Assembly: GCA_963815835.1 (NCBI GenBank)
Contig: CAWFIF010000001.1
Coordinates: 772,807-836,806 of the forward strand
Length of the DNA stretch: 64,000 nt
From: an uncultured delta proteobacterium
GTDB taxonomy: Bacteria; Desulfobacterota; Binatia; Binatales; Binataceae
Direction of reading: 5' to 3'
Position numbers and translations under genes: made by a program. Under the pieces are notes generated by a model. That model saw only the letters and a program-made list of their open reading frames with translations, was not told the origin of the DNA and did not search any database. Shown piece by piece: positions 26,881-36,889 of the stretch. Every line of letters starts with the position of its first letter. Position 1 is the first letter of the stretch.

Positions 26881-28158
26881 TCAGGTGCCGCTGGTCCAGC
26901 TCTCCAGATACTTCCTCTGCTCCGGCGTGAGGCGGTCGATTTTTATTCCCATCGAGGCCAGCTTCAGAGTCGCCACCTCATTTTCGATCTCGAGGGGAAC
27001 GTCATGGACTTTCACCGCAAGCTCGTGATCGCCGGCGGCCCATCGCGAGGCGAGCGCCTGTGTCGCAAAGCTCATGTCCATCACCTGCGCCGGATGGCCT
27101 TCGGCGCACGCGAGGTTGACCAGGCGCCCCTGCCCGAGCAGATAGACCTTGCGCCCGTTGTTCAGATGGAAGACCTCGATCTCGCGCAGGCCCTTGTCAA
27201 CCTTGCTCGCGAGCTTCTTGAGCGCGACGAGATCGATCTCGACATCGAAGTGACCCGAATTACAGACGATCGCGCCGTCTTTCATAAGCTTAATGTGTTC
27301 GGCGCGAATGACTTCGCGATCGCCCGTTACCGTGACAAACACATCGCCGATCTTCGCCGCGTCCGACATCTTCATCACGCGATGGCCATCCATCGCGGCT
27401 TCCAGCGCGCGAATCGGATTCACCTCGGTCACAACCACGCTGGCGCCCAAGCCGTGCGCGCGTGACGCGACGCCGCGCCCGCACCATCCGTAGCCCGCGA
27501 CGACCCAGGTCGAACCCGCGACCAGGATTCCAGTCGAGCGCACGATCGCCTCGACGGTCAACTGTCCGGTGCCGTAGCGATTGTCGAACAGAAACTTGGT
27601 CTGCGCGTCATTGACGGCGACCACCGGGATGCGCAGCGCGCCATCTTTTTCCATCGCGCGCAAGCGGATGACGCCGGTGGTAGTTTCCTCCATGCTGGCG
27701 CGCACTTCACCCGCCTGGTCCTTGAACTCGGTATGCAGGAGGCTCACCAGATCGGCGCCGTCATCCATCGTGATGTTGGGATGACTCTCGAGCACGGCGC
27801 GCAAATGGCTGTAGTAGGTGTCGCGATCCTCGCCATGAATCGCGTAGCAGGGGATGTTGTACTCGCCGACCAGCGCCGCCGCGACGTCGTCCTGCGTCGA
27901 GAGCGGATTGGATGCGCATGCGGTCACCTGCGCGCCACCAGCTTTGAGCGCGCGCAGCAAGTTGCCAGTCTCGGCCGTGATGTGTAGGCACGCGCTCAGC
28001 TTGAGACCCTTTAGCGGCAGCTCTTTCGCGAAGCGCTCGCGGATTTTCCGCAGCACCAGCATCTGCTCGTCGGCCCATTCGATTCGATTCGCTCCGCCCT
28101 TGGCGAGGCCGAGATCCGCAACATCGTAGTCGCGGCTGGCGCGCCGGGCTTTAGGCAT
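26881..28158 (-). CDS. ahcY: adenosylhomocysteinase
   Basis: Typical N-terminus (DYDVADLGLAKGGANRIEWADEQM), NAD-binding GYGWCGRGVA motif, C-terminal conserved KLxxLG region. Confidence 0.9.
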   Translation of the reverse strand: MPKARRASRDYDVADLGLAKGGANRIEWADEQMLVLRKIRERFAKELPLKGLKLSACLHITAETGNLLRALKAGGAQVTACASNPLSTQDDVAAALVGEYNIPCYAIHGEDRDTYYSHLRAVLESHPNITMDDGADLVSLLHTEFKDQAGEVRASMEETTTGVIRLRAMEKDGALRIPVVAVNDAQTKFLFDNRYGTGQLTVEAIVRSTGILVAGSTWVVAGYGWCGRGVASRAHGLGASVVVTEVNPIRALEAAMDGHRVMKMSDAAKIGDVFVTVTGDREVIRAEHIKLMKDGAIVCNSGHFDVEIDLVALKKLASKVDKGLREIEVFHLNNGRKVYLLGQGRLVNLACAEGHPAQVMDMSFATQALASRWAAGDHELAVKVHDVPLEIENEVATLKLASMGIKIDRLTPEQRKYLESWTSGT

Positions 28159-28213
28159 GGCTTTACGCTTGCTGGCTATTGATCCCACCGTAATTTGACT
28201 CCGATATTTCTGC

Positions 28214-29401
28214 TTAGTTCTTGCCGTTGTGCCCGAACGCGGCGCGCATCGCCTCGGCCATATTGGTCTCTTCCCACGGGAAGAGACCGTTGTGCGGCGT
28301 GCGGCCGAAATGTCCGTACGCGGCGGTGGCCTGATAGATAGGACGTTTCAGCGAGAGGGTTCTGATGATGCCGGCGGGGCGGAAATCGAATAGTTCCCGA
28401 ATCGTCGATTCCAGCTTCTTATCGGGAACTTTTCCCGTGTCGAAAGTGTCAACCAGAATCGAAACCGGCTCGGCGACGCCGATCGCATAGGCAACCTGGA
28501 TTTCGCACTTCGTGGCGAGGCCGGCCGCGACTACATTTTTCGCGACGTGACGCGCCATGTAGCAGGCCGAGCGATCGACCTTACTCGGATCCTTGCCCGA
28601 AAAGGCGCCACCGCCATGCCTGCCGTAACCTCCATAGGTATCGACGATGATCTTGCGTCCGGTCAGCCCGCAATCGCCATGCGGTCCGCCAATCACAAAA
28701 CTGCCAGTGGGATTGACGTGGAAAACGGTCGAGCGGTCGAGATATCGTGCGGGGATGGTCTTCTTGATCAGTTCCTCGATGATAACCTCGCGAATCGTCG
28801 AATGGCTGACGTTGGGTTTATGCTGGGTCGAGACGACCACCGCGGTGACCTGCTCGGGACGCCCATCGACGTAGCGCACGGTGACCTGGCTCTTTCCGTC
28901 CGGGCGCAGGAAGTCGAGTTTGTTTTCCTTGCGCAGCTTGGTGAGGTTTTCCATCAGGTGATGCGCGAGCGCGATCGGCAGCGGCATCTGCTCGGGGGTC
29001 TCGTCACATGCGAAGCCGAACATCAGACCCTGATCGCCGGCGCCCTGCTCCTTATGGAGTCCCTCGCCCTCGGTGACGCCCTGCGAGATATCGGCGGACT
29101 GCGGCTCGATTGCCATCAGGACGGCGCAAGTTTTGGCATCGAAGCCGGTTTCGGCATCGTCGTAGCCGATGCCGCGGGCGGTCTCGCGCGCGATGCTCAC
29201 GAAGTCGGGATGCGCGCGGCTGGTAATCTCGCCAGCGAGCACGATGAGGCCGGTTTTGGCGAGCGTTTCGAGGGCGACTCTGGAGTTCGGGTCTTCGGCA
29301 ATCAGCGCATCGAGAACTGCATCCGAAATCTGATCGCACATCTTGTCGGGATGGCCTTCGGAGACCGACTCAGACGTGAACAGAAAATCCTTAAGCGGCA
29401 T
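28214..29401 (-). CDS. metK: S-adenosylmethionine synthetase
   Basis: N-terminal [37 protein letters not shown] and the other MetK signatures. 395 aa. Confidence 0.93.
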
Positions 29402-29713
29402 TCGCTAGGGCTCCTTGGATAGTTGGCGTCGTGCCATGGCGGCGAACAACAGGCAGCGTGATGTCTCAAGTTTCGGTCCGACTTCGCGAGATCGCGAGTC
29501 GGCGCCAGATGGTGCGCGATGAAATCTGTATCCTCGGCTTGATATGGCGTTTACGTAAAGCGCCCCACGTGTACGCCATTTGCACACGTGGAGCGCCGTT
29601 AATTCAAGATGAGGATGCTATCCTGACCACGCGGTCGGGGTCAAGAATACGTCCGGCCTCGCGCATGGAGCGAGGATCCGTGACGCCAGCGACCGTCGCG
29701 CGTGTACGCGCCT

Positions 29714-30202
29714 CTAGTTGTCGAGCGGATGCTTGAACTTGCGATCGGGGTGACGAATCGTAAGCACTGGGCAAGCGGCCTTCTGTACCACTCGCTCGGC
29801 GACACTGCCCATCAGCACGTGCGCGATCCCAGTGCGTCCGTGGGTGCCCATCACGATCAGGTCGGCGCCCTCGGCTTGTGCCGCATGAATTATCTCGAGA
29901 AAGGGCGAGCCGACCTTCAGCATCGAGCGCGCCTTCAGGCCGGAGTCGCGCATGCGGTTGACGATTTTATCGAGTTCCTTCTGCGCCATCATGCGCTGCT
30001 CTTCCGCGATTCTCGTCATCGCACCGACGTCCATCACCGGACCGATCTCCGGTGACACCATTACCGGTGGGAGCGCCTGGTTGACATGGAGCAGGAGGAT
30101 CTCAGCGCCGAAGCGCCGCGCGATTTCTTCGGCATAACCGATCGCGAGATTGGAATCCTCGGAGAAGTCTGTCGCGGAAACGATCTTGGTGAAGTTCGCC
30201 AC
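29714..30202 (-). CDS. universal stress protein (UspA family); start uncertain
   Basis: USP ATP-binding signature (ADLIVMGTHGRTGIAHVLMGSVAERVVQKAACPVLTIRH). The tabulated ORF extends to 30793 through the Hsp20 gene. GTG at 30202 gives a canonical 162-aa USP. Confidence 0.6.
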   Translation of the reverse strand: MANFTKIVSATDFSEDSNLAIGYAEEIARRFGAEILLLHVNQALPPVMVSPEIGPVMDVGAMTRIAEEQRMMAQKELDKIVNRMRDSGLKARSMLKVGSPFLEIIHAAQAEGADLIVMGTHGRTGIAHVLMGSVAERVVQKAACPVLTIRHPDRKFKHPLDN

Positions 30203-30328
30203 GAGGCGACCATAGCGTTGAGGCTCAACTGTGGCAAGCGGACCTTTGCAGCGCTTGCCGTCATCCAAACCGCGCTGTCCGTCTCGACCAGCAGGTGCGT
30301 GAGGCATTAGAATTGACCGAAGGATTTT

Positions 30329-30709
30329 TTGCGAATGGCAAGACGAGCGGGAATAAGCGTTCTGGATTTCGAGCGGGCGCTCGACGAATTTTTTGACGAG
30401 ATGCTTATCTCGCGATGGCGCCGCACCGCCGATCGCGATGAGTTCGAGAACGCGCAGATCCTCGATCATCCGGATCGCTACGAAGTGCGGATCGCCGTGC
30501 CTAACGTCGATCCCGAGCGCATCGAGATCGATGTCGCGGGTCAGCGTCTCAGCGTGCGCGCGCCGGCCGGCTCGGAGGGCACCTTCGAGACCGCTTACTC
30601 TTTCGCGGTTCCGATCGAGGCCGAGGCGGTCCAGGCGCGATGGACCGATCACACACTTATCGTCATCGTTCCGAAACAGAAGCCCAAACGAATCAAAGTC
30701 AATAACTAA
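30329..30709 (+). CDS. Hsp20/alpha-crystallin family small heat-shock protein
   Basis: 126 aa with alpha-crystallin domain pattern (YEVRIAVPNVDPERIEIDVAGQRLSVRA..) and C-terminal I-x-I/V-like tail (RIKV). Confidence 0.7.
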   Translation: MRMARRAGISVLDFERALDEFFDEMLISRWRRTADRDEFENAQILDHPDRYEVRIAVPNVDPERIEIDVAGQRLSVRAPAGSEGTFETAYSFAVPIEAEAVQARWTDHTLIVIVPKQKPKRIKVNN

Positions 30710-30747
30710 CGAGCGTGCCTCCATCCGCTCTCCAGTGAGACCCTCCC

Positions 30748-33288
30748 ATGCCTGAAAAAACCGACGGAGACTCGCGCAATCCGCCTGAAGCAAAAGCGGC
30801 GGAACTTAAGCCGGCGCCGCAGCCGACCGAACTGGCGCCAGCGGAGCTGCGCGGCGCGCCTCCGCTAACCTCTGACGAGTTGCTTGCCGCGTCGAGGGAT
30901 GGCGACGGCGAGGAACTTCTCGGCCAAGGGCGCGCATTCGACGCGATCAGAATGGCAATTGGCATCGGCGGTCCCGGCTACAACGTGTTCGTATCGGGTG
31001 TGCGCTCGCGCGAAGAGCGCGAATCGGTCATCAAGCTGCTCGCCGAGAAGGCTGCCTCGATGCCGACCCCGGGCGATTGGGTGTACGTGCACAACTTCCG
31101 CAATCCCGAAGCGCCATGCGCGCTCTATCTGACGCCCGGCCAAGGTCCCAAGCTGCGCGATCGGATGAACCAACTGATCGAATCGATAATCGAGCAGCTT
31201 CCCAAGGCATTTAGACGAGAGGATTTCGATCAGGAACGTTCGGCGCTGCGCGAGAAATACAACAAGCGTGCGCAGGAACTCTTCGGAGGTCTCGAGCAGA
31301 AGGCGCGGGAAAAGGGCTTCGCGATCCAGACCACGCCCAACGGTCAGGTGATCTTCCTTCCGCTCGTCGAGGGCAAAATGCCCGAGTCGCCGGAGGCGCT
31401 CAACAAGGCGATGCAGGAAAAGACCGACGCGGAGCGTGAGCAACTGGGCAAGGCGCAAGTCGAGCTGCAAGAGGAGTTCGGCAGCGTCATCCTTAAGCAG
31501 CAGGAGCTGATGCGCGAACTGATAGAGGATATCCGCACCATCGAGCGCTCGTTCGCGGCCCGCCTGGTCAATCCACTGATCGCTGAAATCAAGGCTCAAT
31601 TCGAAAATCCCGGCGTTGCCGCATACCTCGATCATGTAGCCGAGCACATCCTCGACAATCTCGACCGCTTTCGTGAAACCGAGGGCAGGCAGGCACCCGG
31701 CATTCCGGGGATGCCGCAAGCGCCGGAAGACGGACGCCACTGGTTCGAGTACCAGGTCAACGTGATGGTCGATAACTCGGAGACCAAGGGCGCGCCGGTG
31801 GTCAATGAGGATGCGCCGAGCTACCGAAACTTGTTCGGCACCATCGAGCGTTGGATCGATCCGCTCGGGCGCTCCGGCACCAACTTCACCCGAATTATCG
31901 GCGGCTCATACATCAAGTCCCACGGCGGCTTCCTGATCCTCGACATGGAAGACGCGGTAATCGAGCCTGGAGTGTGGAAGGCACTCAAGCGCAGTCTCAA
32001 ATCCGGCCGCGTCACGGTGGAGACCTTTGAGCCGTTCCCGTTTTTCTCAGTGAGCGGACTGCGCCCCGAATCGATCGAGGTGCGCAACAAGATCCTCGTC
32101 CTCGGCGGGCCGTATCTCTACAATCTGTTGTATTTCTACGACACCGATTTCCCAGAGTTGTTCAAGGTCAAAGCGGAGATTAGACCGATCGTCGGCGCCG
32201 ACAAGACCGCTGCGGCGAAGTATGCGGCGCGCGTGGGCGAATTGGTGCGGCGCGAGAAACTGCCGCCATTCGAGGGCGACGCACTCGCGAGAATCGTGCA
32301 GTTCGGGATGCGGCTGGCGGGCGATCGCGCGCGGATGCTGGCCGTGATGGAGCCGATCGACGATTTAGCGCGCGAGTCGGCCTACTTCGCGATTAGCGAG
32401 GGCGCCCGTATCGTCGCCGCGCCGCACGTCGAGCGAGCACTGCGCGAGCGGATGCTGCGGCTCAACTACATCGAGGAGGAGATCCGCCGGCTGATCGCGA
32501 ACGGCACGCTGATCGTACATCTTGATGGAGCCTCGGTCGGACAGATAAACGGACTCGCCGTGATCGACGTCGGCGGCTATGCATTTGGGCGTCCCTCGCG
32601 CATCACCGCAACCGTGGCGCTAGGCCAGGCGGGGCTCATCAACATCGAACGCGAGGCACGCCTTTCGGGATCGACGCATGACAAAGGCGTCGCGATCCTG
32701 AGCGGATTCCTGCGCAACCGCTTCGGCCAGACTCATCCGGTTGCGATGACGGCTAGCATCTGCTTCGAGCAATCCTATTCGGGGATCGACGGAGACAGCG
32801 CCAGCTCTACCGAGGTTTACGCGCTGTTGTCAGCTCTGAGCGGAGTGCCGATTCGCCAGAATCTGGCCGTCACCGGCTCGGTCAACCAATACGGCGACGT
32901 CCAGGCGATCGGCGGTGCCAATGAGAAAATCGAAGGCTACTACCGTGTGTGCAAGGCAGTCGGGCTCACCGGATCGCAGGGCGTGCTGGTGCCGCGCGCC
33001 AATATCGCCAACCTGATGCTTGATCCTGAAACCGTCGATGCGGTCGCGCGGGGCGCCTTCCATATCTATCCGGTGGATAACATCGATCGCGGCATCGAGT
33101 TGCTTACCGGCGTCCGCGCGGGAAGCATTGATGAGCCCGGCACCATCAACTATCTCGTCGACCAGAGACTCCAGAAGATCTCACTCTGGCTCCGCGAACG
33201 TGGCGAACGCGAAACCCGCATCGTACACGACAATCCTCCCACTCCGCCTGCGCCCAAGCCGCCGGAGCCTCCGGGGCCGCCGCGATAG
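30748..33288 (+). CDS. Lon-like protease with degenerate Walker A (LonC-type) and Pro-rich C-terminal tail
   Basis: 846 aa. AAA-like region lacks GK[ST] (GIGGPGYNVFVSG). Large helical insertion. C-terminal S16 peptidase domain with Ser-Lys dyad context (GIDGDSASSTEVYALLSALSGVPIRQNLAVTGSVNQYGDVQAIGGANEKIEG). Confidence 0.75.
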   Translation: MPEKTDGDSRNPPEAKAAELKPAPQPTELAPAELRGAPPLTSDELLAASRDGDGEELLGQGRAFDAIRMAIGIGGPGYNVFVSGVRSREERESVIKLLAEKAASMPTPGDWVYVHNFRNPEAPCALYLTPGQGPKLRDRMNQLIESIIEQLPKAFRREDFDQERSALREKYNKRAQELFGGLEQKAREKGFAIQTTPNGQVIFLPLVEGKMPESPEALNKAMQEKTDAEREQLGKAQVELQEEFGSVILKQQELMRELIEDIRTIERSFAARLVNPLIAEIKAQFENPGVAAYLDHVAEHILDNLDRFRETEGRQAPGIPGMPQAPEDGRHWFEYQVNVMVDNSETKGAPVVNEDAPSYRNLFGTIERWIDPLGRSGTNFTRIIGGSYIKSHGGFLILDMEDAVIEPGVWKALKRSLKSGRVTVETFEPFPFFSVSGLRPESIEVRNKILVLGGPYLYNLLYFYDTDFPELFKVKAEIRPIVGADKTAAAKYAARVGELVRREKLPPFEGDALARIVQFGMRLAGDRARMLAVMEPIDDLARESAYFAISEGARIVAAPHVERALRERMLRLNYIEEEIRRLIANGTLIVHLDGASVGQINGLAVIDVGGYAFGRPSRITATVALGQAGLINIEREARLSGSTHDKGVAILSGFLRNRFGQTHPVAMTASICFEQSYSGIDGDSASSTEVYALLSALSGVPIRQNLAVTGSVNQYGDVQAIGGANEKIEGYYRVCKAVGLTGSQGVLVPRANIANLMLDPETVDAVARGAFHIYPVDNIDRGIELLTGVRAGSIDEPGTINYLVDQRLQKISLWLRERGERETRIVHDNPPTPPAPKPPEPPGPPR

Positions 33289-33336
33289 TTGATGTTGTTT
33301 CACGCGCGGAGAATATTTCCGCTAGAGTCCCCCAGA

Positions 33337-34740
33337 ATGCCGATTGATTTGCGGCTCGACCCGCACGAGATATCCCTCCTCAACGACCTCTACGAATTTA
33401 CCGTGGCGGCGGCCTTCTTCGAGCGCGGGATGAATGGCGCCGCCTCCTTCGAGGTCATGGTGCGGCGCTTTCCGCCGAGCCGTGGATACATGATTGCGGC
33501 CGGGTTGGAGCGCGTGCTTCAAATCCTCGAGGATTTCCACTTCGATGCGACGGCGATTGACCATCTTGAGTCGCTGCATCTCTTCAAGCCCGAATTTCTA
33601 CATCACCTGGCGCAGTTGCGTTTCACCGGCTCGGTGCGCGCGGTCGCGGATGGCAGCATCTTCTTTCCCGGCGAACCGGTCATGGAAGTACGCGGACCGC
33701 TCATCGAAACGCAGATCCTCGAGCCGTTGATCCTGAACCAGCTGGGATTCGCATCGCTTACGGCGACCAAGGCGGCGCGATGTTTCAGCGTCGCCTCCGG
33801 ACGGCGGCTGGTCGAGTTCGGCTTGCGGCGGGGGCAGGGAGCCGATGCGACTTTGATCGCCGCACACTCCAGCTATCTGGCGGGGTTCAGCGGAACCTCG
33901 AACGTGCTCGCCGGCAAACGCTATGGGATGCCGGTGTTTGGCACCATGAGCCACAGCTTCATAATGGCGCATGATGGCGAGCGCCAGGCGTTCGAGGATT
34001 TCGCCCGAACTTTTCCCAAACTGAACACGATGCTGGTCGATACTTACGACACGGCGCAGGGCGTCAGGAACGTCGCGGAACTCGCGCAGCGGCTCACCAA
34101 GGAAGAGATTAAAATACAGGCGGTGAGATTGGACAGCGGCGACCTCTATCAGTTGAGCCGCCAGGCGCGCGCGATTCTCGATCAGCACGGACTGACTGAC
34201 ATCGCGATCTTTGCCAGCGGCAATCTCGACGAATATCGAATCGCGGACCTGATTCGCGCGGGCGCGCCGATCGACGCGTTCGGTGTGGGAACCGCGCTGA
34301 CCGTCAGCGACGATGCTCCCAGCGCCGACTACACCTACAAGCTCTCCGACTATCTCGGCCGTCCGCGGCTCAAAACGTCCGCGGGCAAGACCACGGTGCC
34401 GGGGCGCAAGCAGATCTTCCGGGGAATCGACGCCGGCAATCACTTTTCGCAGGATCTGGTTGGGCTCATGGATGAAACGCCGAGCAGCGTGACGCGCGAA
34501 TTCAAGCCCGCAGTTTCCAAAATCACGCCGATGCTGCAGACGGTGTTCGAGAATGGCCGGCGGGCGATCGCGGCGCCCACGCTGGATGAATCGCGCGATC
34601 ATTTCATGACCGAGTTCGCGATGCTCGGCGCAAAGCAGCGCTCACTCGCAAATCCCGCGGTGTATGCTGTCCGCCTTACCGCCGCGCTGAACGCGATGAC
34701 GATTAGCGCGAAGCTTCGGGCGGAGCAGCTGCAAGACTGA
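33337..34740 (+). CDS. pncB: nicotinate phosphoribosyltransferase
   Basis: NAPRTase N-terminal and catalytic domain motifs (LLNDLYEFTVAAAF; GTMSHSFIMAHD; GVGTAL). The tabulated ORF starts at 33289, overlapping the Lon stop. Confidence 0.8.
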   Translation: MPIDLRLDPHEISLLNDLYEFTVAAAFFERGMNGAASFEVMVRRFPPSRGYMIAAGLERVLQILEDFHFDATAIDHLESLHLFKPEFLHHLAQLRFTGSVRAVADGSIFFPGEPVMEVRGPLIETQILEPLILNQLGFASLTATKAARCFSVASGRRLVEFGLRRGQGADATLIAAHSSYLAGFSGTSNVLAGKRYGMPVFGTMSHSFIMAHDGERQAFEDFARTFPKLNTMLVDTYDTAQGVRNVAELAQRLTKEEIKIQAVRLDSGDLYQLSRQARAILDQHGLTDIAIFASGNLDEYRIADLIRAGAPIDAFGVGTALTVSDDAPSADYTYKLSDYLGRPRLKTSAGKTTVPGRKQIFRGIDAGNHFSQDLVGLMDETPSSVTREFKPAVSKITPMLQTVFENGRRAIAAPTLDESRDHFMTEFAMLGAKQRSLANPAVYAVRLTAALNAMTISAKLRAEQLQD

Positions 34741-36889
34741 GCGAAGGTTGCGATGACACGCGCTCGGCAACCTGCCGCAGGTGCGACGGGTCGAATTCCA
34801 TCACCATCAACTGGATCGATTCGCCACTGGTTGAGCCGAAGATTTGCGGCGCGAACAGATAACGGACAAACGTCCGCGCTCCATTCGGCGGCCAAAGCCG
34901 CGGATATGGAAAGTAGATTTTCTCGGCATCGGCGCCATAGCTATCGATGATCGGTTTGAGACCCGAGGCGGAGCCGGCGACCCCAATTCCGATTTTGCCT
35001 TCGAGCTGGCCCGACCAGATGTCGTTATAGCCGTCGGGCTTGGGATCGAATGTCCATCCCGCGGGGAACAGGCCGGCGGCTTCGAGCGTCGGGACGTTGA
35101 GCTTAGCGGCATCGCCGCCGTTCTCGAGATAGCGCTCGGTCGCCGCGATCAGCGTCTCGAAGCGAGCGCGTTCGGCACGTTGCTCGAGGTCGATCGCGTT
35201 CATTCCCCGATACGCCTTAAGCGCGTCGGGCGGGATGCGATAGAAAAGAACGCCCCCGACTTCCCGCGGCGTGACCTCGAGACTCGATAGCAACTGCTTC
35301 CATTGCGGCACGCGCGAATCGCCCGCGTCGAGCACGATCGCGGTGATGCCGAGGTTGGCGACGAAGGCCTTGAGCTGGAGATCCGGCTGCGGAAGGTCGG
35401 GCGAGCCGACGAACACGTTGACCACCGGCCAGCGCCGAATCTCGATCGGCTGCAGACCGGTCAGTCCCGATGCCATCCGAAAATTCATTCCGCTCTCGGC
35501 CAGCCACATCATCGACATCCCCTGTTGGCCAAACGGCAGCGGCAGCACGATATCATCGCCGGCCAGCAAACGATTCGAACTTCCGTCACGGAAAAATGCC
35601 GGCAGCGGCGCCCGGCGCGCCCAGAACGACGCGGCAGGGTTCGGCATCAGCATGATGAGCGTCGCCAGCGTGCCGATCACTTTTTCCGCTGGGCCGGTGA
35701 GCGGATCGCAAAGCCACATCGTGAAAATGACGGCCAGCGCAAGGAAGGCATACATGACCAGCCGCCCCGGGACGGCGCTTTTGATCAGCGGCAGCTTCTC
35801 GACCACCAGCCACGGCATCGGCAGTACCTGATGTCCCGCGATCTGAAGATATGGTCCGAGGGCGAGGATGCAGCTCACCGCGACGGTTGCCAGGAGAAGT
35901 TTCGGCAGCAACTCGCCGCGATGGCGGCGGCTCCAGACCGCCGCGATCGCGAGCAGCGGAATTCCGAGGCACGCGCCCTGTTCGTAAATGTCGCCGGGAA
36001 AGGTCGCGGAGACTTGTGTCAGCGTCCCGAGGTTGCCGATCGCATTGGCTGGAGTAGGAACGATGAAGTTCAGCAAGTCGGTGGAGAACCTCGCGGACGG
36101 CCATAGCGGCCGGCTCGGGAATCCGTAGGCGAAATAGAAATAGATATATGGACTCATCAGCAGCGCGGTGAACGCATATGCCGCCGCGATTTCGGGGATC
36201 AATCGCGCGATGCGCCGGCGATCCTCTCCTGACGCGATTCGCAACCCGATGAGTAGCGTCAGCGCGGCGAGGAACGTCATCACCGCGAACGGTTCGAGCA
36301 CCAGCAGGAACTGCATCGAAAGGACGAGGGTCAGCAGAACCACGAATCGGTTGCGGCTTAGATTTTCCCGCACCCGCCGAACGGCGAGGTATACCGCGAG
36401 CGGAACCGGGAAAATCAGGAGCTGATTCAGATGGCTGAGAATTTGTCCAAGCACAAAGGGTGAGAAGCCGAACAGAAATCCACCCAGCAGCGCCGCGGCA
36501 AAGGCGCCGCTCAATCTCCGACAGAGCAGAAACGCCGTTAAGGCGGCCAGCGGCGGCAGCATCACAATGATCAGGTTGAAAGTCGCGAGCGGCCCGAGCG
36601 TGTTAGTCAGCGGCGTTGCGATGATACCCAACAGCGGGAGGCACGTGACCCAGGCGAGGTTTATGCCTTGCGGCGCCCAAATCAACTTGGTCAGAAATGG
36701 ATGCGCATGATGATGCAGTACATAGGGCCACCATGCGAGCGACCACATATACAATGATGGGTCGGTGTCGCGGCCGACGTAGTAATCGAACAGATGTCCG
36801 GGAAGCATCCGCGCGAAAAATATCAGTGACAGGAATAGGTATACGGCAAACGCGAACAGACTATTCGCAAGTGTGTGACGCGATTGCAT
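34703..36889 (-). CDS. large polytopic membrane protein with C-terminal extracytoplasmic domain (putative GT-C-type glycosyltransferase); paralogue 3 of a trio
   Basis: 728 aa, about 10-12 predicted TM helices in the first 420 aa, then a soluble domain of about 300 aa. ATG lies 3 nt after the stop of the upstream paralogue. Confidence 0.5.
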   Translation of the reverse strand: MQSRHTLANSLFAFAVYLFLSLIFFARMLPGHLFDYYVGRDTDPSLYMWSLAWWPYVLHHHAHPFLTKLIWAPQGINLAWVTCLPLLGIIATPLTNTLGPLATFNLIIVMLPPLAALTAFLLCRRLSGAFAAALLGGFLFGFSPFVLGQILSHLNQLLIFPVPLAVYLAVRRVRENLSRNRFVVLLTLVLSMQFLLVLEPFAVMTFLAALTLLIGLRIASGEDRRRIARLIPEIAAAYAFTALLMSPYIYFYFAYGFPSRPLWPSARFSTDLLNFIVPTPANAIGNLGTLTQVSATFPGDIYEQGACLGIPLLAIAAVWSRRHRGELLPKLLLATVAVSCILALGPYLQIAGHQVLPMPWLVVEKLPLIKSAVPGRLVMYAFLALAVIFTMWLCDPLTGPAEKVIGTLATLIMLMPNPAASFWARRAPLPAFFRDGSSNRLLAGDDIVLPLPFGQQGMSMMWLAESGMNFRMASGLTGLQPIEIRRWPVVNVFVGSPDLPQPDLQLKAFVANLGITAIVLDAGDSRVPQWKQLLSSLEVTPREVGGVLFYRIPPDALKAYRGMNAIDLEQRAERARFETLIAATERYLENGGDAAKLNVPTLEAAGLFPAGWTFDPKPDGYNDIWSGQLEGKIGIGVAGSASGLKPIIDSYGADAEKIYFPYPRLWPPNGARTFVRYLFAPQIFGSTSGESIQLMVMEFDPSHLRQVAERVSSQPSLSLAAAPPEASR

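What the first reader, a model, noticed from the sequence alone, without database searches (positions are those of the whole stretch)
29714..34740. sHsp - ATPase-dead Lon-like protease (LonC-type) - NAPRTase operon, divergent from a USP gene
Hsp20 (30329-30709), the Lon-like gene (30748-33288) and pncB follow each other on the plus strand with 38-nt and about 0-48-nt gaps. The Lon-like protein keeps the Ser-Lys protease dyad but lacks the P-loop Lys/Ser (GIGGPGYNVFVSG). It has a non-canonical Walker B (LILDMED), a large helical insertion and a Pro-rich tail. A holdase paired with a chaperone-like, ATP-independent Lon is a plausible stress proteostasis module. Coupling to NAD salvage is unusual.
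Basis: partly seen in the sequence, partly recalled or inferred. Interest (0 to 1): 0.55.

Follow-up and report, generated by a model that had tools for sequence, protein, structure and literature searches.

The report
Small heat-shock protein plus LonC protease operon
This is a stress operon from an uncultured Binataceae bacterium that pairs a stripped-down small heat-shock protein with a known kind of energy-independent Lon protease (LonC), followed by an NAD-salvage gene. The parts are ordinary, but the chaperone-protease pairing recurs in three phyla and I found no published report of it.

Summary
The genes are USP (-, 29714-30202), hsp20 (+, 30335-30709), lonC (+, 30748-33288) and pncB (+, 33337-34740), with 38-nt and 48-nt gaps.

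The 846-aa protein is a clear LonC. It matches the Pfam families LonC_helical, AAA_32, LonB_AAA-LID and Lon_C. It matches MtaLonC by sequence (E 6e-87) and by fold (TM 0.85). It has the Ser684/Lys727 dyad, Asp before the Ser, and the LonC-specific CX3GLXG insertion. It has no Walker A or Walker B anywhere. Its P-loop is 2 residues shorter and lacks Gly-Lys, which is more degenerate than in most of the family.

hsp20 lies directly upstream of lonC in 7/7 Binataceae loci, 3 Planctomycetota loci and 4 Desulfobacterota loci, with unrelated flanks. It is absent from about 62 other LonC loci and from the characterised Meiothermus and Thermus genes. pncB linkage is Binataceae-only and sits inside broader synteny.

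The promoter CTCGAC-N18/19-TAGAAT is conserved in 7/7 Binataceae loci. No CIRCE, HAIR, sigma32-type site or RNA thermometer was found.

The Binataceae Hsp20 lacks the beta6 dimerisation loop.

Verdict: a new member of a known family with a conserved, apparently unreported sHsp partner. Functional cooperation is inferred, not shown. Interest is modest.

The parts
29714..30202 (-). Universal stress protein gene (162 aa, GTG start), divergent from hsp20
   Evidence: Pfam Usp E 6e-32. The same divergent position occurs in L001-L006.
30209..30237 (-). Promoter-like site for USP: TTGCCA-17-TATGGT. The -10 element ends 6 nt before the GTG start, so the mRNA is probably leaderless.
   Evidence: scan. 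GGCAAG and CCATA are conserved in the Binataceae intergenic regions.
30283..30313 (+). Conserved promoter of the hsp20-lonC-pncB unit: CTCGAC-N19-TAGAAT
   Evidence: Found. CTCGAC-N18/19-TA[GC]A[AT]T is present in 7/7 Binataceae loci while the flanking intergenic DNA has diverged. It is the only match in the 64-kb window.
30335..30709 (+). hsp20: a 124-aa small heat-shock protein. It has a short N-terminal region with the near-invariant motif DFERAxDEFFDEMLIxRW, a minimal alpha-crystallin domain lacking the beta6 loop, and a C-terminal RIKV (IxV) motif.
   Evidence: Pfam HSP20 31.5 bits against a cut-off of 20.8. The AF2 alpha-crystallin domain has pLDDT 80-90 and a best fold match to S. solfataricus Hsp20.1 ACD, TM 0.79.
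30748..33288 (+). lonC: an 846-aa ATP-independent-type Lon-like protease
   Evidence: Pfam LonC_helical + AAA_32 + LonB_AAA-LID + Lon_C. MtaLonC match E 6e-87. The AF2 model has pLDDT 84.6 and matches 8k8v_A with TM 0.85.
30976..31026 (+). Degenerate, shortened P-loop region (GYNVFVSGVRSREERES, aa 77-93). It has a 2-residue deletion and no Gly-Lys/Arg.
   Evidence: Aligned to GxxGTG[KR][ST]T in 148 representatives. It is the same in all 7 Binataceae loci. The model leaves only 4 residues between strand 80-83 and helix 88-103.
31135..31683 (+). Helical-hairpin extension (HHE, aa ~130-312) with a hydrophobic beta-hairpin hook (aa 190-209). This is the substrate-binding, chaperone-like insertion of LonC.
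   Evidence: Model helices 132-188 and 215-312 and hairpin 191-205. Fold match to the MtaLonC N-terminal domain 4fwv, TM 0.86. The role of the HHE is described in PMC13069640.
31924..31953 (+). Walker-B-like strand GGFLILDMED without the catalytic Glu
   Evidence: Aligns to MtaLonC GYLILDA (PMC3391209). The family consensus is GGYLVLNA.D.
32791..32805 (+). Catalytic Ser684 in GDSAS, with Asp before the Ser as in LonB and LonC
   Evidence: Invariant in 148/148 representatives. The Asp rule is from PMC9569914.
32920..32973 (+). Catalytic Lys727 (NEKIEG), followed by the LonC-specific insertion CKAVGLTG (CX3GLXG)
   Evidence: Lys is invariant. The Cys is present in 145/148 representatives and GL-x-G in about 134-140/148. 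The insertion is defined in PMC3391209.
33235..33285 (+). C-terminal Pro-rich tail ending ...PKPPEPPGPPR
   Evidence: PKPPxPPEPPR-like ends are conserved in 6 of the 7 Binataceae LonCs; L005 ends ...PPGPPEPPT. The tail has low pLDDT in the model.
33337..34740 (+). pncB: nicotinate phosphoribosyltransferase, 467 aa
   Evidence: NCBIfam NF006696 equivalog, 551 bits against a cut-off of 503. Pfam NAPRTase_N, NAPRTase and NAPRTase_C. It lies downstream of lonC only in Binataceae.
34703..36889 (-). Convergent DUF6311-family membrane protein gene. It marks the 3' boundary of the unit and overlaps the pncB 3' end by 38 nt.
   Evidence: The homologue is annotated PF19830 in L001.

Best explanation
hsp20-lonC(-pncB) is a stress proteostasis operon of an uncultured Binataceae bacterium.

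Transcription. One conserved sigma70-like promoter (CTCGAC-N19-TAGAAT) drives three co-directional genes with 38-nt and 48-nt gaps and no terminator between them.

Proposed mechanism:
- The small Hsp20 binds unfolding proteins without ATP.
- LonC assembles into a ring whose helical-hairpin extensions form a hydrophobic basket. The basket holds non-native chains and feeds already-unfolded ones to the Ser684-Lys727 sites, again without ATP.
- Together the two proteins give an energy-independent hold-or-degrade route for damaged proteins.

Derived features. In this lineage both partners have lost parts. LonC has lost even the phosphate-binding P-loop that MtaLonC keeps. Hsp20 has lost the beta6 dimerisation loop. 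This suggests a specialised pair.

pncB. It is probably co-transcribed, but it belongs to the unit only in Binataceae.

What is shown: the gene identities, the motif states, the conservation of the gene pair and the conservation of the promoter.

What is inferred: absence of ATPase activity, stress induction, and any physical hand-over between Hsp20 and LonC.
For: LonC identity.

LonC biochemistry. MtaLonC has no ATPase activity, degrades only unfolded substrates, is heat-induced, and switches between chaperone and protease forms (PMC3391209, PMC13069640).

Hsp20 identity.

Gene-pair conservation:
- hsp20 lies immediately upstream of lonC on the same strand in 7/7 Binataceae loci, in 3 Planctomycetota loci (Pirellulales, Anaerohalosphaeraceae, Gimesia) and in 4 Desulfobacterota loci. 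The gaps run from -4 to about 158 nt.
- L007 (Binatia) carries two hsp20 genes within 1.6 kb.
- These loci form two LonC clades in a neighbour-joining tree, and the genes flanking the pair are unrelated to one another.
- All 9 Hsp20 genes found in about 740 kb of non-Binataceae flanks sit next to lonC. Seven are in the immediately upstream slot and two are close downstream in L007. None lies elsewhere.
- At least 15 further Binataceae Hsp20 hits have exactly the same longest-contig length as a LonC hit.

Promoter: conserved in 7/7 Binataceae loci. There is no terminator-like site in the hsp20-lonC or lonC-pncB gaps; the only plus-strand one lies inside the hsp20 coding sequence.

Other stress-gene links. 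USP genes also recur next to lonC in another clade (L058, L068, L077).
Against: - Most LonC loci have no hsp20 neighbour (about 62 of 69 assessable loci outside Binataceae). The two biochemically characterised LonCs also have none. LonC therefore does not need an sHsp in general.
- Counted as evolutionary events, the linkage may reflect only 2-3 origins.
- There is no expression data and no recognisable heat-shock operator, sigma32-type promoter or RNA thermometer. Stress induction is an assumption.
- No interaction evidence exists, because a complex could not be modelled with these tools.
- pncB lies inside a larger syntenic block, GGT-ECH-USP-Hsp20-LonC-PncB-DUF6311. Its linkage could be plain inheritance.
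Confidence: 0.6

Rival explanations
1. Co-regulation only. Hsp20 and LonC belong to the same stress regulon and are placed together for common expression, but they act independently on damaged proteins. There is no hand-over and no complex.
For: - The characterised LonCs work alone in vitro (PMC3391209, PMC13069640) and lack an hsp20 neighbour.
- Most LonC loci lack hsp20.
- USP genes, another generic stress family, also recur beside lonC.
Against: - The pair has been kept as immediate, tightly spaced neighbours across three phyla while everything around it changed.
- In Binataceae both partners carry lineage-specific losses, which fits co-adaptation. LonC has lost the P-loop and Hsp20 has lost the beta6 loop.
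Confidence: 0.28
2. Hsp20 is mainly a substrate or regulator of LonC. For example, LonC could clear sHsp-client assemblies or free sHsp after stress. E. coli LonA degrades free IbpA and IbpB in this way.
For: - The abstract of bioRxiv 10.1101/2020.06.17.157248 states that Lon proteolyses free IbpA and IbpB. From my own knowledge, Bissonnette et al. 2010 reported the same.
- The N-terminal region of Hsp20 is predicted to be flexible, so it could be degraded without ATP.
Against: - There is no direct evidence.
- This rival is not exclusive of the best explanation.
- The near-invariant N-terminal motif suggests a binding function rather than a disposable tail.
Confidence: 0.1
3. The locus is an anti-phage defence or other non-proteostasis Lon-like system, such as a BrxL-type system.
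For: Lon-like proteases do occur in BREX systems (my own knowledge).
Against: - None of the three proteins matches any PADLOC model.
- The architecture and fold are LonC, not BrxL.
- The neighbours are housekeeping or stress genes.
Confidence: 0.01

Closest known systems
MtaLonC / TTC1975 (LonC subfamily, MEROPS S16.007; Meiothermus taiwanensis, Thermus thermophilus)
   Same: - Same domain order: a short N-terminal segment, then an AAA-like alpha/beta domain interrupted by the helical-hairpin extension, then the LID, then the Lon protease domain.
- Ser-Lys dyad with Asp before the Ser.
- CX3GLXG insertion.
- Walker B without the catalytic Glu.
- No transmembrane segment and no LonA N-domain.
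- Full-length fold match with TM 0.85.
   Different: - About 30% identity and 114 residues longer.
- The P-loop is 2 residues shorter and lacks Gly-Lys, whereas MtaLonC keeps GPPSLGKHE and binds phosphate there.
- A conserved Pro-rich C-terminal tail.
- An hsp20 gene directly upstream, which Meiothermus and Thermus lack.
Archaeal LonB (e.g. Thermococcus onnurineus, PDB 3k1j)
   Same: No LonA N-domain. Asp-Ser at the active site. AAA and LID domains of the LonB type. Fold match with TM 0.71.
   Different: LonB has intact Walker A and B motifs and a membrane anchor inserted in the AAA domain. Here the insertion is a soluble helical hairpin, the longest hydrophobic run is 7 residues, and there are no Walker motifs.
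Bacterial and archaeal small heat-shock proteins (IbpA/IbpB, Hsp16.5, Hsp20.1) and the sHsp-Lon link in E. coli
   Same: Alpha-crystallin beta-sandwich. C-terminal IxV motif. A short, flexible N-terminal region.
   Different: - Only 124 aa.
- Lacks about 15 residues of the beta5-beta7 loop (beta6), which makes the canonical dimer of non-metazoan sHsps. This explains why CS/p23 domains also match the model.
- Homologues at this sensitivity are confined to Binataceae.
- The partner protease is LonC, not the ATP-dependent LonA.
Nicotinate phosphoribosyltransferase PncB (NF006696 / TIGR01513 type)
   Same: Full-length match above the curated equivalog cut-off.
   Different: Nothing unusual in the protein. 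Only its position after lonC is unusual, and that position is Binataceae-specific.

Membership tests
LonC subfamily of Lon proteases | Lon S16 protease domain with a Ser-Lys dyad and Asp (not Pro) before the Ser | tested here: met
   GDS684A and K727. Both are invariant in 148 representatives. Pfam Lon_C. The rule is from PMC9569914.
LonC subfamily of Lon proteases | LonC-specific insertion CX3GLX(G/E) after the catalytic-Lys helix | tested here: met
   CKAVGLTG at aa 735-742. The definition is from PMC3391209.
LonC subfamily of Lon proteases | Helical-hairpin extension inserted in the AAA alpha/beta domain, with no transmembrane anchor and no LonA N-domain | tested here: met
   Pfam LonC_helical. 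Model helices and hairpin at aa 130-312. Match to 4fwv with TM 0.86. Longest hydrophobic run is 7 residues.
LonC subfamily of Lon proteases | Degenerate AAA+ motifs (no catalytic Walker B Glu) and no ATPase activity | tested here: inconclusive
   The motifs are absent, so the sequence half of this feature is met. ATPase activity itself cannot be tested with these tools.
LonC subfamily of Lon proteases | Overall sequence and fold similarity to MtaLonC greater than to LonA or LonB | tested here: met
   By sequence: E 6e-87 for MtaLonC, 6e-21 for LonB and about 1e-5 for LonA. By Foldseek: 1e-55, 4e-31 and about 1e-15 respectively.
Small heat-shock proteins (HSP20 / alpha-crystallin) | Alpha-crystallin domain beta-sandwich | tested here: met
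   Pfam HSP20 scores above the gathering threshold. The AF2 model matches sHsp alpha-crystallin domains with TM up to 0.79.
Small heat-shock proteins (HSP20 / alpha-crystallin) | C-terminal I-x-I/V anchoring motif | tested here: met
   R-I-K-V at aa 119-122. The equivalent sequences in relatives are RIKV, RIAL and RISV.
Small heat-shock proteins (HSP20 / alpha-crystallin) | beta6 loop used for the strand-swapped dimer of bacterial and archaeal sHsps | tested here: not met
   About 15 residues are missing in all 7 Binataceae copies compared with the other LonC-linked Hsp20s. This feature defines the canonical dimer type, not the family itself.
Small heat-shock proteins (HSP20 / alpha-crystallin) | Holdase activity and oligomer formation | not testable with these tools
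   Needs biochemistry.
Nicotinate phosphoribosyltransferase (PncB) | Score above the curated equivalog cut-off, with all three NAPRTase domains | tested here: met
   NF006696, 551 bits against 503. Pfam NAPRTase_N, NAPRTase and NAPRTase_C.
Universal stress protein | Usp domain | tested here: met
   Pfam Usp E 6e-32, covering the full profile.
BREX BrxL and other defence Lon-like proteases | Match to defence-system protein models, with defence genes nearby | tested here: not met
   No PADLOC hit for any of the three proteins. The neighbours are metabolic or stress genes.
Classical heat-shock regulons (HrcA/CIRCE, HspR/HAIR, E. coli-type sigma32, ROSE/FourU thermometers) | Operator, promoter or RNA element upstream of hsp20 | tested here: not met
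   - CIRCE: 0 matches in the window.
- HAIR: none near the locus.
- Best sigma32-like match has 5 mismatches, which is the chance level.
- Rfam: no hit.

The most novel reading that the evidence does not exclude
In one or two LonC clades the upstream Hsp20 is a dedicated partner of LonC. It would act as a substrate-delivery or gating factor, so the pair forms a fully ATP-independent capture-and-degrade machine. In Binataceae the pair has co-evolved further. LonC has dispensed with the phosphate-binding P-loop that influences ring assembly in MtaLonC. The sHsp has dropped its canonical dimer loop and kept an invariant acidic N-terminal helix, which could serve as the docking element.
Probability: 0.25. 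Interest if true: 0.55.

Novelty: new member of a known kind. Interest (0 to 1): 0.3.

Why it matters
LonC is the least understood Lon subfamily. It has been studied in two thermophiles only, and its physiological substrates and partners are unknown.

A conserved sHsp neighbour gives a concrete, testable candidate partner. It also gives a natural series of LonCs with progressively lost P-loops (GK, then GR, then deleted). That series can be used to ask what the dead AAA module still does.

If the pair cooperates, it would be an ATP-free alternative to the usual route from sHsp to DnaK/ClpB. That could matter for slow-growing, energy-limited soil bacteria such as Binataceae.

The individual genes are otherwise ordinary.

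Tried and rejected
Regulatory elements searched without result:
- CIRCE, HAIR and E. coli-type sigma32 promoter searches found nothing above chance.
- An Rfam scan of 29400-35000 at E<=1 found nothing.

Defence reading: the PADLOC scan was empty, so this was rejected.

Hidden Walker motifs: a search for Walker A or B elsewhere in LonC found none.

pncB: I looked for pncB next to lonC outside Binataceae and found none in 77 loci.

Method problems:
- Greedy ORF calling mis-called several upstream genes because of antisense ORFs and over-extended lonC starts. The Pfam tally of neighbours therefore undercounts HSP20, finding 4 instead of 7. The iterated HMM on all ORFs is the better count.
- The first MAFFT --auto run timed out.

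Not attempted:
- A mirror-tree or sHsp phylogeny to decide between one and two origins of the linkage. About 100 alignable sHsp positions would not resolve it.
- The neighbour-joining tree is approximate, and its deep branches should not be trusted.
Full report
1. What is in the sequence

The ORF map and family scans confirm four genes.
- A universal stress protein lies on the minus strand. Pfam Usp gives E 6e-32. The real start is GTG 30202, giving 162 aa as called in a relative.
- An Hsp20-family protein, an 846-aa Lon-like protein and a nicotinate phosphoribosyltransferase lie on the plus strand.
- hsp20 most likely starts at ATG 30335 (124 aa, GAAGGA 9 nt upstream), not at TTG 30329.
- pncB starts at ATG 33337, giving 467 aa as in three relatives.
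- The gaps are 38 nt and 48 nt.
- A convergent DUF6311-type membrane protein gene overlaps the end of pncB by 38 nt and closes the unit.
- No terminator-like site lies in the gaps between the three genes; the only plus-strand one is inside the hsp20 coding sequence.
- Substitutions between the window and its 92%-identical relative L001 are concentrated at third codon positions in all three genes. Counts at codon positions 1/2/3 are 12/7/34 for hsp20, 60/24/281 for lonC and 45/16/156 for pncB. All three are therefore real coding genes, and hsp20 is evolving fastest.
- Names attached to homologues place the organism in Candidatus Binataceae.

2. The protease is a LonC

Sequence and fold evidence:
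- Pfam finds LonC_helical, AAA_32 (LonB-like AAA), LonB_AAA-LID and Lon_C, in that order.
- The best solved relative is Meiothermus taiwanensis LonC, with E 6e-87. Archaeal LonB gives 6e-21 and LonA about 1e-5.
- An AlphaFold2 model built from a 40-sequence alignment has mean pLDDT 84.6.
- The model matches the full-length MtaLonC cryo-EM chain 8k8v_A at TM 0.85. It matches the isolated helical-hairpin domain 4fwv at TM 0.86.

Family-defining features were taken from PMC3391209, PMC9569914 and PMC13069640. All are present:
- Catalytic Ser684 preceded by Asp, and Lys727.
- The CX3GLXG insertion (CKAVGLTG).
- A helical-hairpin extension at aa ~130-312 with a hydrophobic beta-hairpin.
- No membrane segment and no LonA N-domain.

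3. State of the ATPase motifs

No G-x4-GK[ST] and no hhhhDE occurs anywhere in the protein.

I aligned 148 representatives of the nearest 50%-identity clusters. The family has 1,893 such clusters at E<=1e-30. The results are:
- Walker B is degenerate throughout the family, with consensus GGYLVLNA.D.
- The P-loop varies. It is GK[ST] in 22 representatives, GK-other in 24, GR in 86 and otherwise degenerate in 16.
- The window protein is at the far end of this range. At the position of MtaLonC GPPSLGKHE it reads SGVRSREER, with a two-residue deletion.
- In the model only four residues link strand 80-83 to helix 88-103.
- All seven Binataceae LonCs share this state.

MtaLonC cannot hydrolyse ATP but still binds phosphate in its P-loop (PMC13069640). 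This lineage has probably lost that as well. This is an inference, and activity was not measured.

4. Is the gene order conserved?

Within Binataceae. Six further loci with LonC 65-92% identical all have the order USP, then hsp20-lonC-pncB. However, a larger block, GGT-ECH-USP-Hsp20-LonC-PncB-DUF6311, is also syntenic there. The window differs only in having metK and ahcY upstream. This level of comparison alone says little about function.

Across other phyla. A scan of one genome per GTDB species with a family alignment returned 80 LonC loci from many phyla. An HMM iterated from the Binataceae Hsp20s was run on all ORFs of these loci, with Pfam confirmation.
- hsp20 lies immediately upstream on the same strand in three Planctomycetota loci (Pirellulales, Anaerohalosphaeraceae, Gimesia).
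- It does so in four Desulfobacterota loci (NaphS2, two Desulfobacteraceae, one Desulfovibrionaceae).
- The gaps run from -4 to about 158 nt.
- A non-Binataceae Binatia genome (L007) has two hsp20 genes within 1.6 kb downstream on the other strand.
- No Hsp20 gene was found anywhere else in the flanks. All nine lie beside lonC, seven of them in the immediately upstream slot.
- About 62 of 69 assessable loci have none.

Phylogenetic pattern. In a neighbour-joining tree the linked loci form two clades, Binatia plus Planctomycetota, and Desulfobacterota. The genes flanking the pair differ completely between them: ribonucleotide reductase, a sensor kinase, RadC and oxidoreductases.

Conclusions on linkage:
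- The conserved unit is the two-gene pair hsp20-lonC.
- pncB follows lonC only in Binataceae.
- The characterised LonC genes of Meiothermus and Thermus have no hsp20 neighbour.
- Two literature searches found no paper linking Hsp20 with LonC.

5. The Hsp20

Evidence that it is an sHsp:
- Pfam HSP20 is above threshold, at 31.5 bits against 20.8.
- The model has a confident alpha-crystallin sandwich at aa 38-115 with pLDDT 80-90. It matches sHsp alpha-crystallin domains with TM up to 0.79.
- The C-terminus carries an IxV motif, RIKV.

Ways in which it is a stripped-down sHsp:
- It is only 124 aa.
- It has a nearly invariant acidic N-terminal motif, DFERAxDEFFDEMLIxRW.
- It lacks about 15 residues of the beta5-beta7 loop that forms beta6. 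That loop makes the strand-swapped dimer of bacterial and archaeal sHsps. It is present in the LonC-linked Hsp20s of the other phyla.
- Detectable homologues of this short form are few (122) and, where named, all come from Binataceae or Binatus.

6. Regulation

The USP-hsp20 intergenic region (132 nt) has diverged among Binataceae except for two promoter-like elements.
- CTCGAC-N18/19-TA[GC]A[AT]T lies upstream of hsp20 in 7/7 loci. The leader is 6-30 nt long.
- TTGCCA-17-TATGGT serves USP on the other strand and ends 6 nt before its GTG start.

There is no CIRCE, no HAIR, no E. coli-type sigma32 promoter above chance, and no Rfam thermometer. Stress induction is therefore assumed by analogy with heat-induced MtaLonC. 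It is not shown here.

7. Interpretation

The best reading is a stress proteostasis operon. An ATP-independent holdase is paired with an ATP-independent chaperone-protease, and pncB is attached in this lineage. Three observations favour real cooperation:
- The gene pair persists across three phyla despite turnover of the flanking genes.
- The spacing between the two genes is tight.
- Both proteins carry derived losses in Binataceae.

The main rival is simple co-regulation of two independent stress proteins. It cannot be excluded, because LonC clearly works without an sHsp elsewhere. A substrate or regulator relationship, as for E. coli Lon and IbpA/B, is compatible with either reading. A defence role is rejected.

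8. Verdict

The locus is a new member of a known protease family in an ordinary-looking stress operon. Beyond that, three points are worth noting:
- The hsp20-lonC pairing is conserved and apparently unreported.
- LonC has lost its P-loop completely.
- The sHsp lacks the beta6 loop.

The NAD-salvage link is lineage-specific and weakly supported as a functional coupling. Interest is modest.

Noticed in passing
window 30200-30237 (- strand): The USP promoter-like -10 element (TATGGT) ends 6 nt before the GTG start, so the USP mRNA is probably leaderless. In L003, L005 and L006 the hsp20 -10 element also ends 6 nt before a GTG start.
   Followed up: partly
window 34703-34740: pncB and the convergent DUF6311-type membrane protein gene overlap by 38 nt at their 3' ends. 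No terminator-like site lies between them.
   Followed up: no
window 33235-33285; L001-L006, L008-L010: The LonC C-terminus ends in a Pro-rich tail. PKPPxPPEPPR-like ends are conserved in 6 of the 7 Binataceae copies. The Planctomycetota relatives also end Pro-rich, while the Desulfobacterota relatives end Lys-rich. Function is unknown.
   Followed up: partly
L058:7447-8286, L068:7469-8335, L077:7359-8198: In another LonC clade (Chlorobiaceae, Ardenticatenaceae, Anaerolineales) a USP-domain protein of about 280 aa lies immediately downstream of lonC on the same strand, with gaps of 31, -4 and 9 nt. USP-LonC adjacency therefore recurs outside Binataceae.
   Followed up: partly
LonC family alignment (P0121-P0269): Most LonC-family representatives (86 of 148) carry Arg instead of Lys in the P-loop (G-T-G-R-x-T). 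This is a family-wide Lys-to-Arg swap that I did not see discussed in the LonC papers I read.
   Followed up: partly
LonC alignment, window aa 393-402 (31924-31953): The hsp20-linked LonCs mostly share a Leu after the Walker-B-like Asn/Asp (N/D-L-x-D). It is Met in the window, L001 and L002, and Ile in L009. Most other LonCs have Ala there (N-A-x-D). L039 has the Leu but no hsp20 was detected.
   Followed up: no
window 26881-29401 (- strand): The adenosylhomocysteinase and SAM synthetase genes (ahcY, metK) lie directly upstream of USP in the window. The other Binataceae loci have enoyl-CoA hydratase and gamma-glutamyltranspeptidase genes there instead. This marks a local rearrangement breakpoint at the edge of the conserved block.
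   Followed up: partly
L084, L085 (Meiothermus, Thermus): Precomputed Pfam hits for the Deinococcota LonCs lack PF20437 (LonC_helical), although these are the founding LonC members. The Binataceae proteins do hit it. The model seems tuned to other LonC clades.
   Followed up: no
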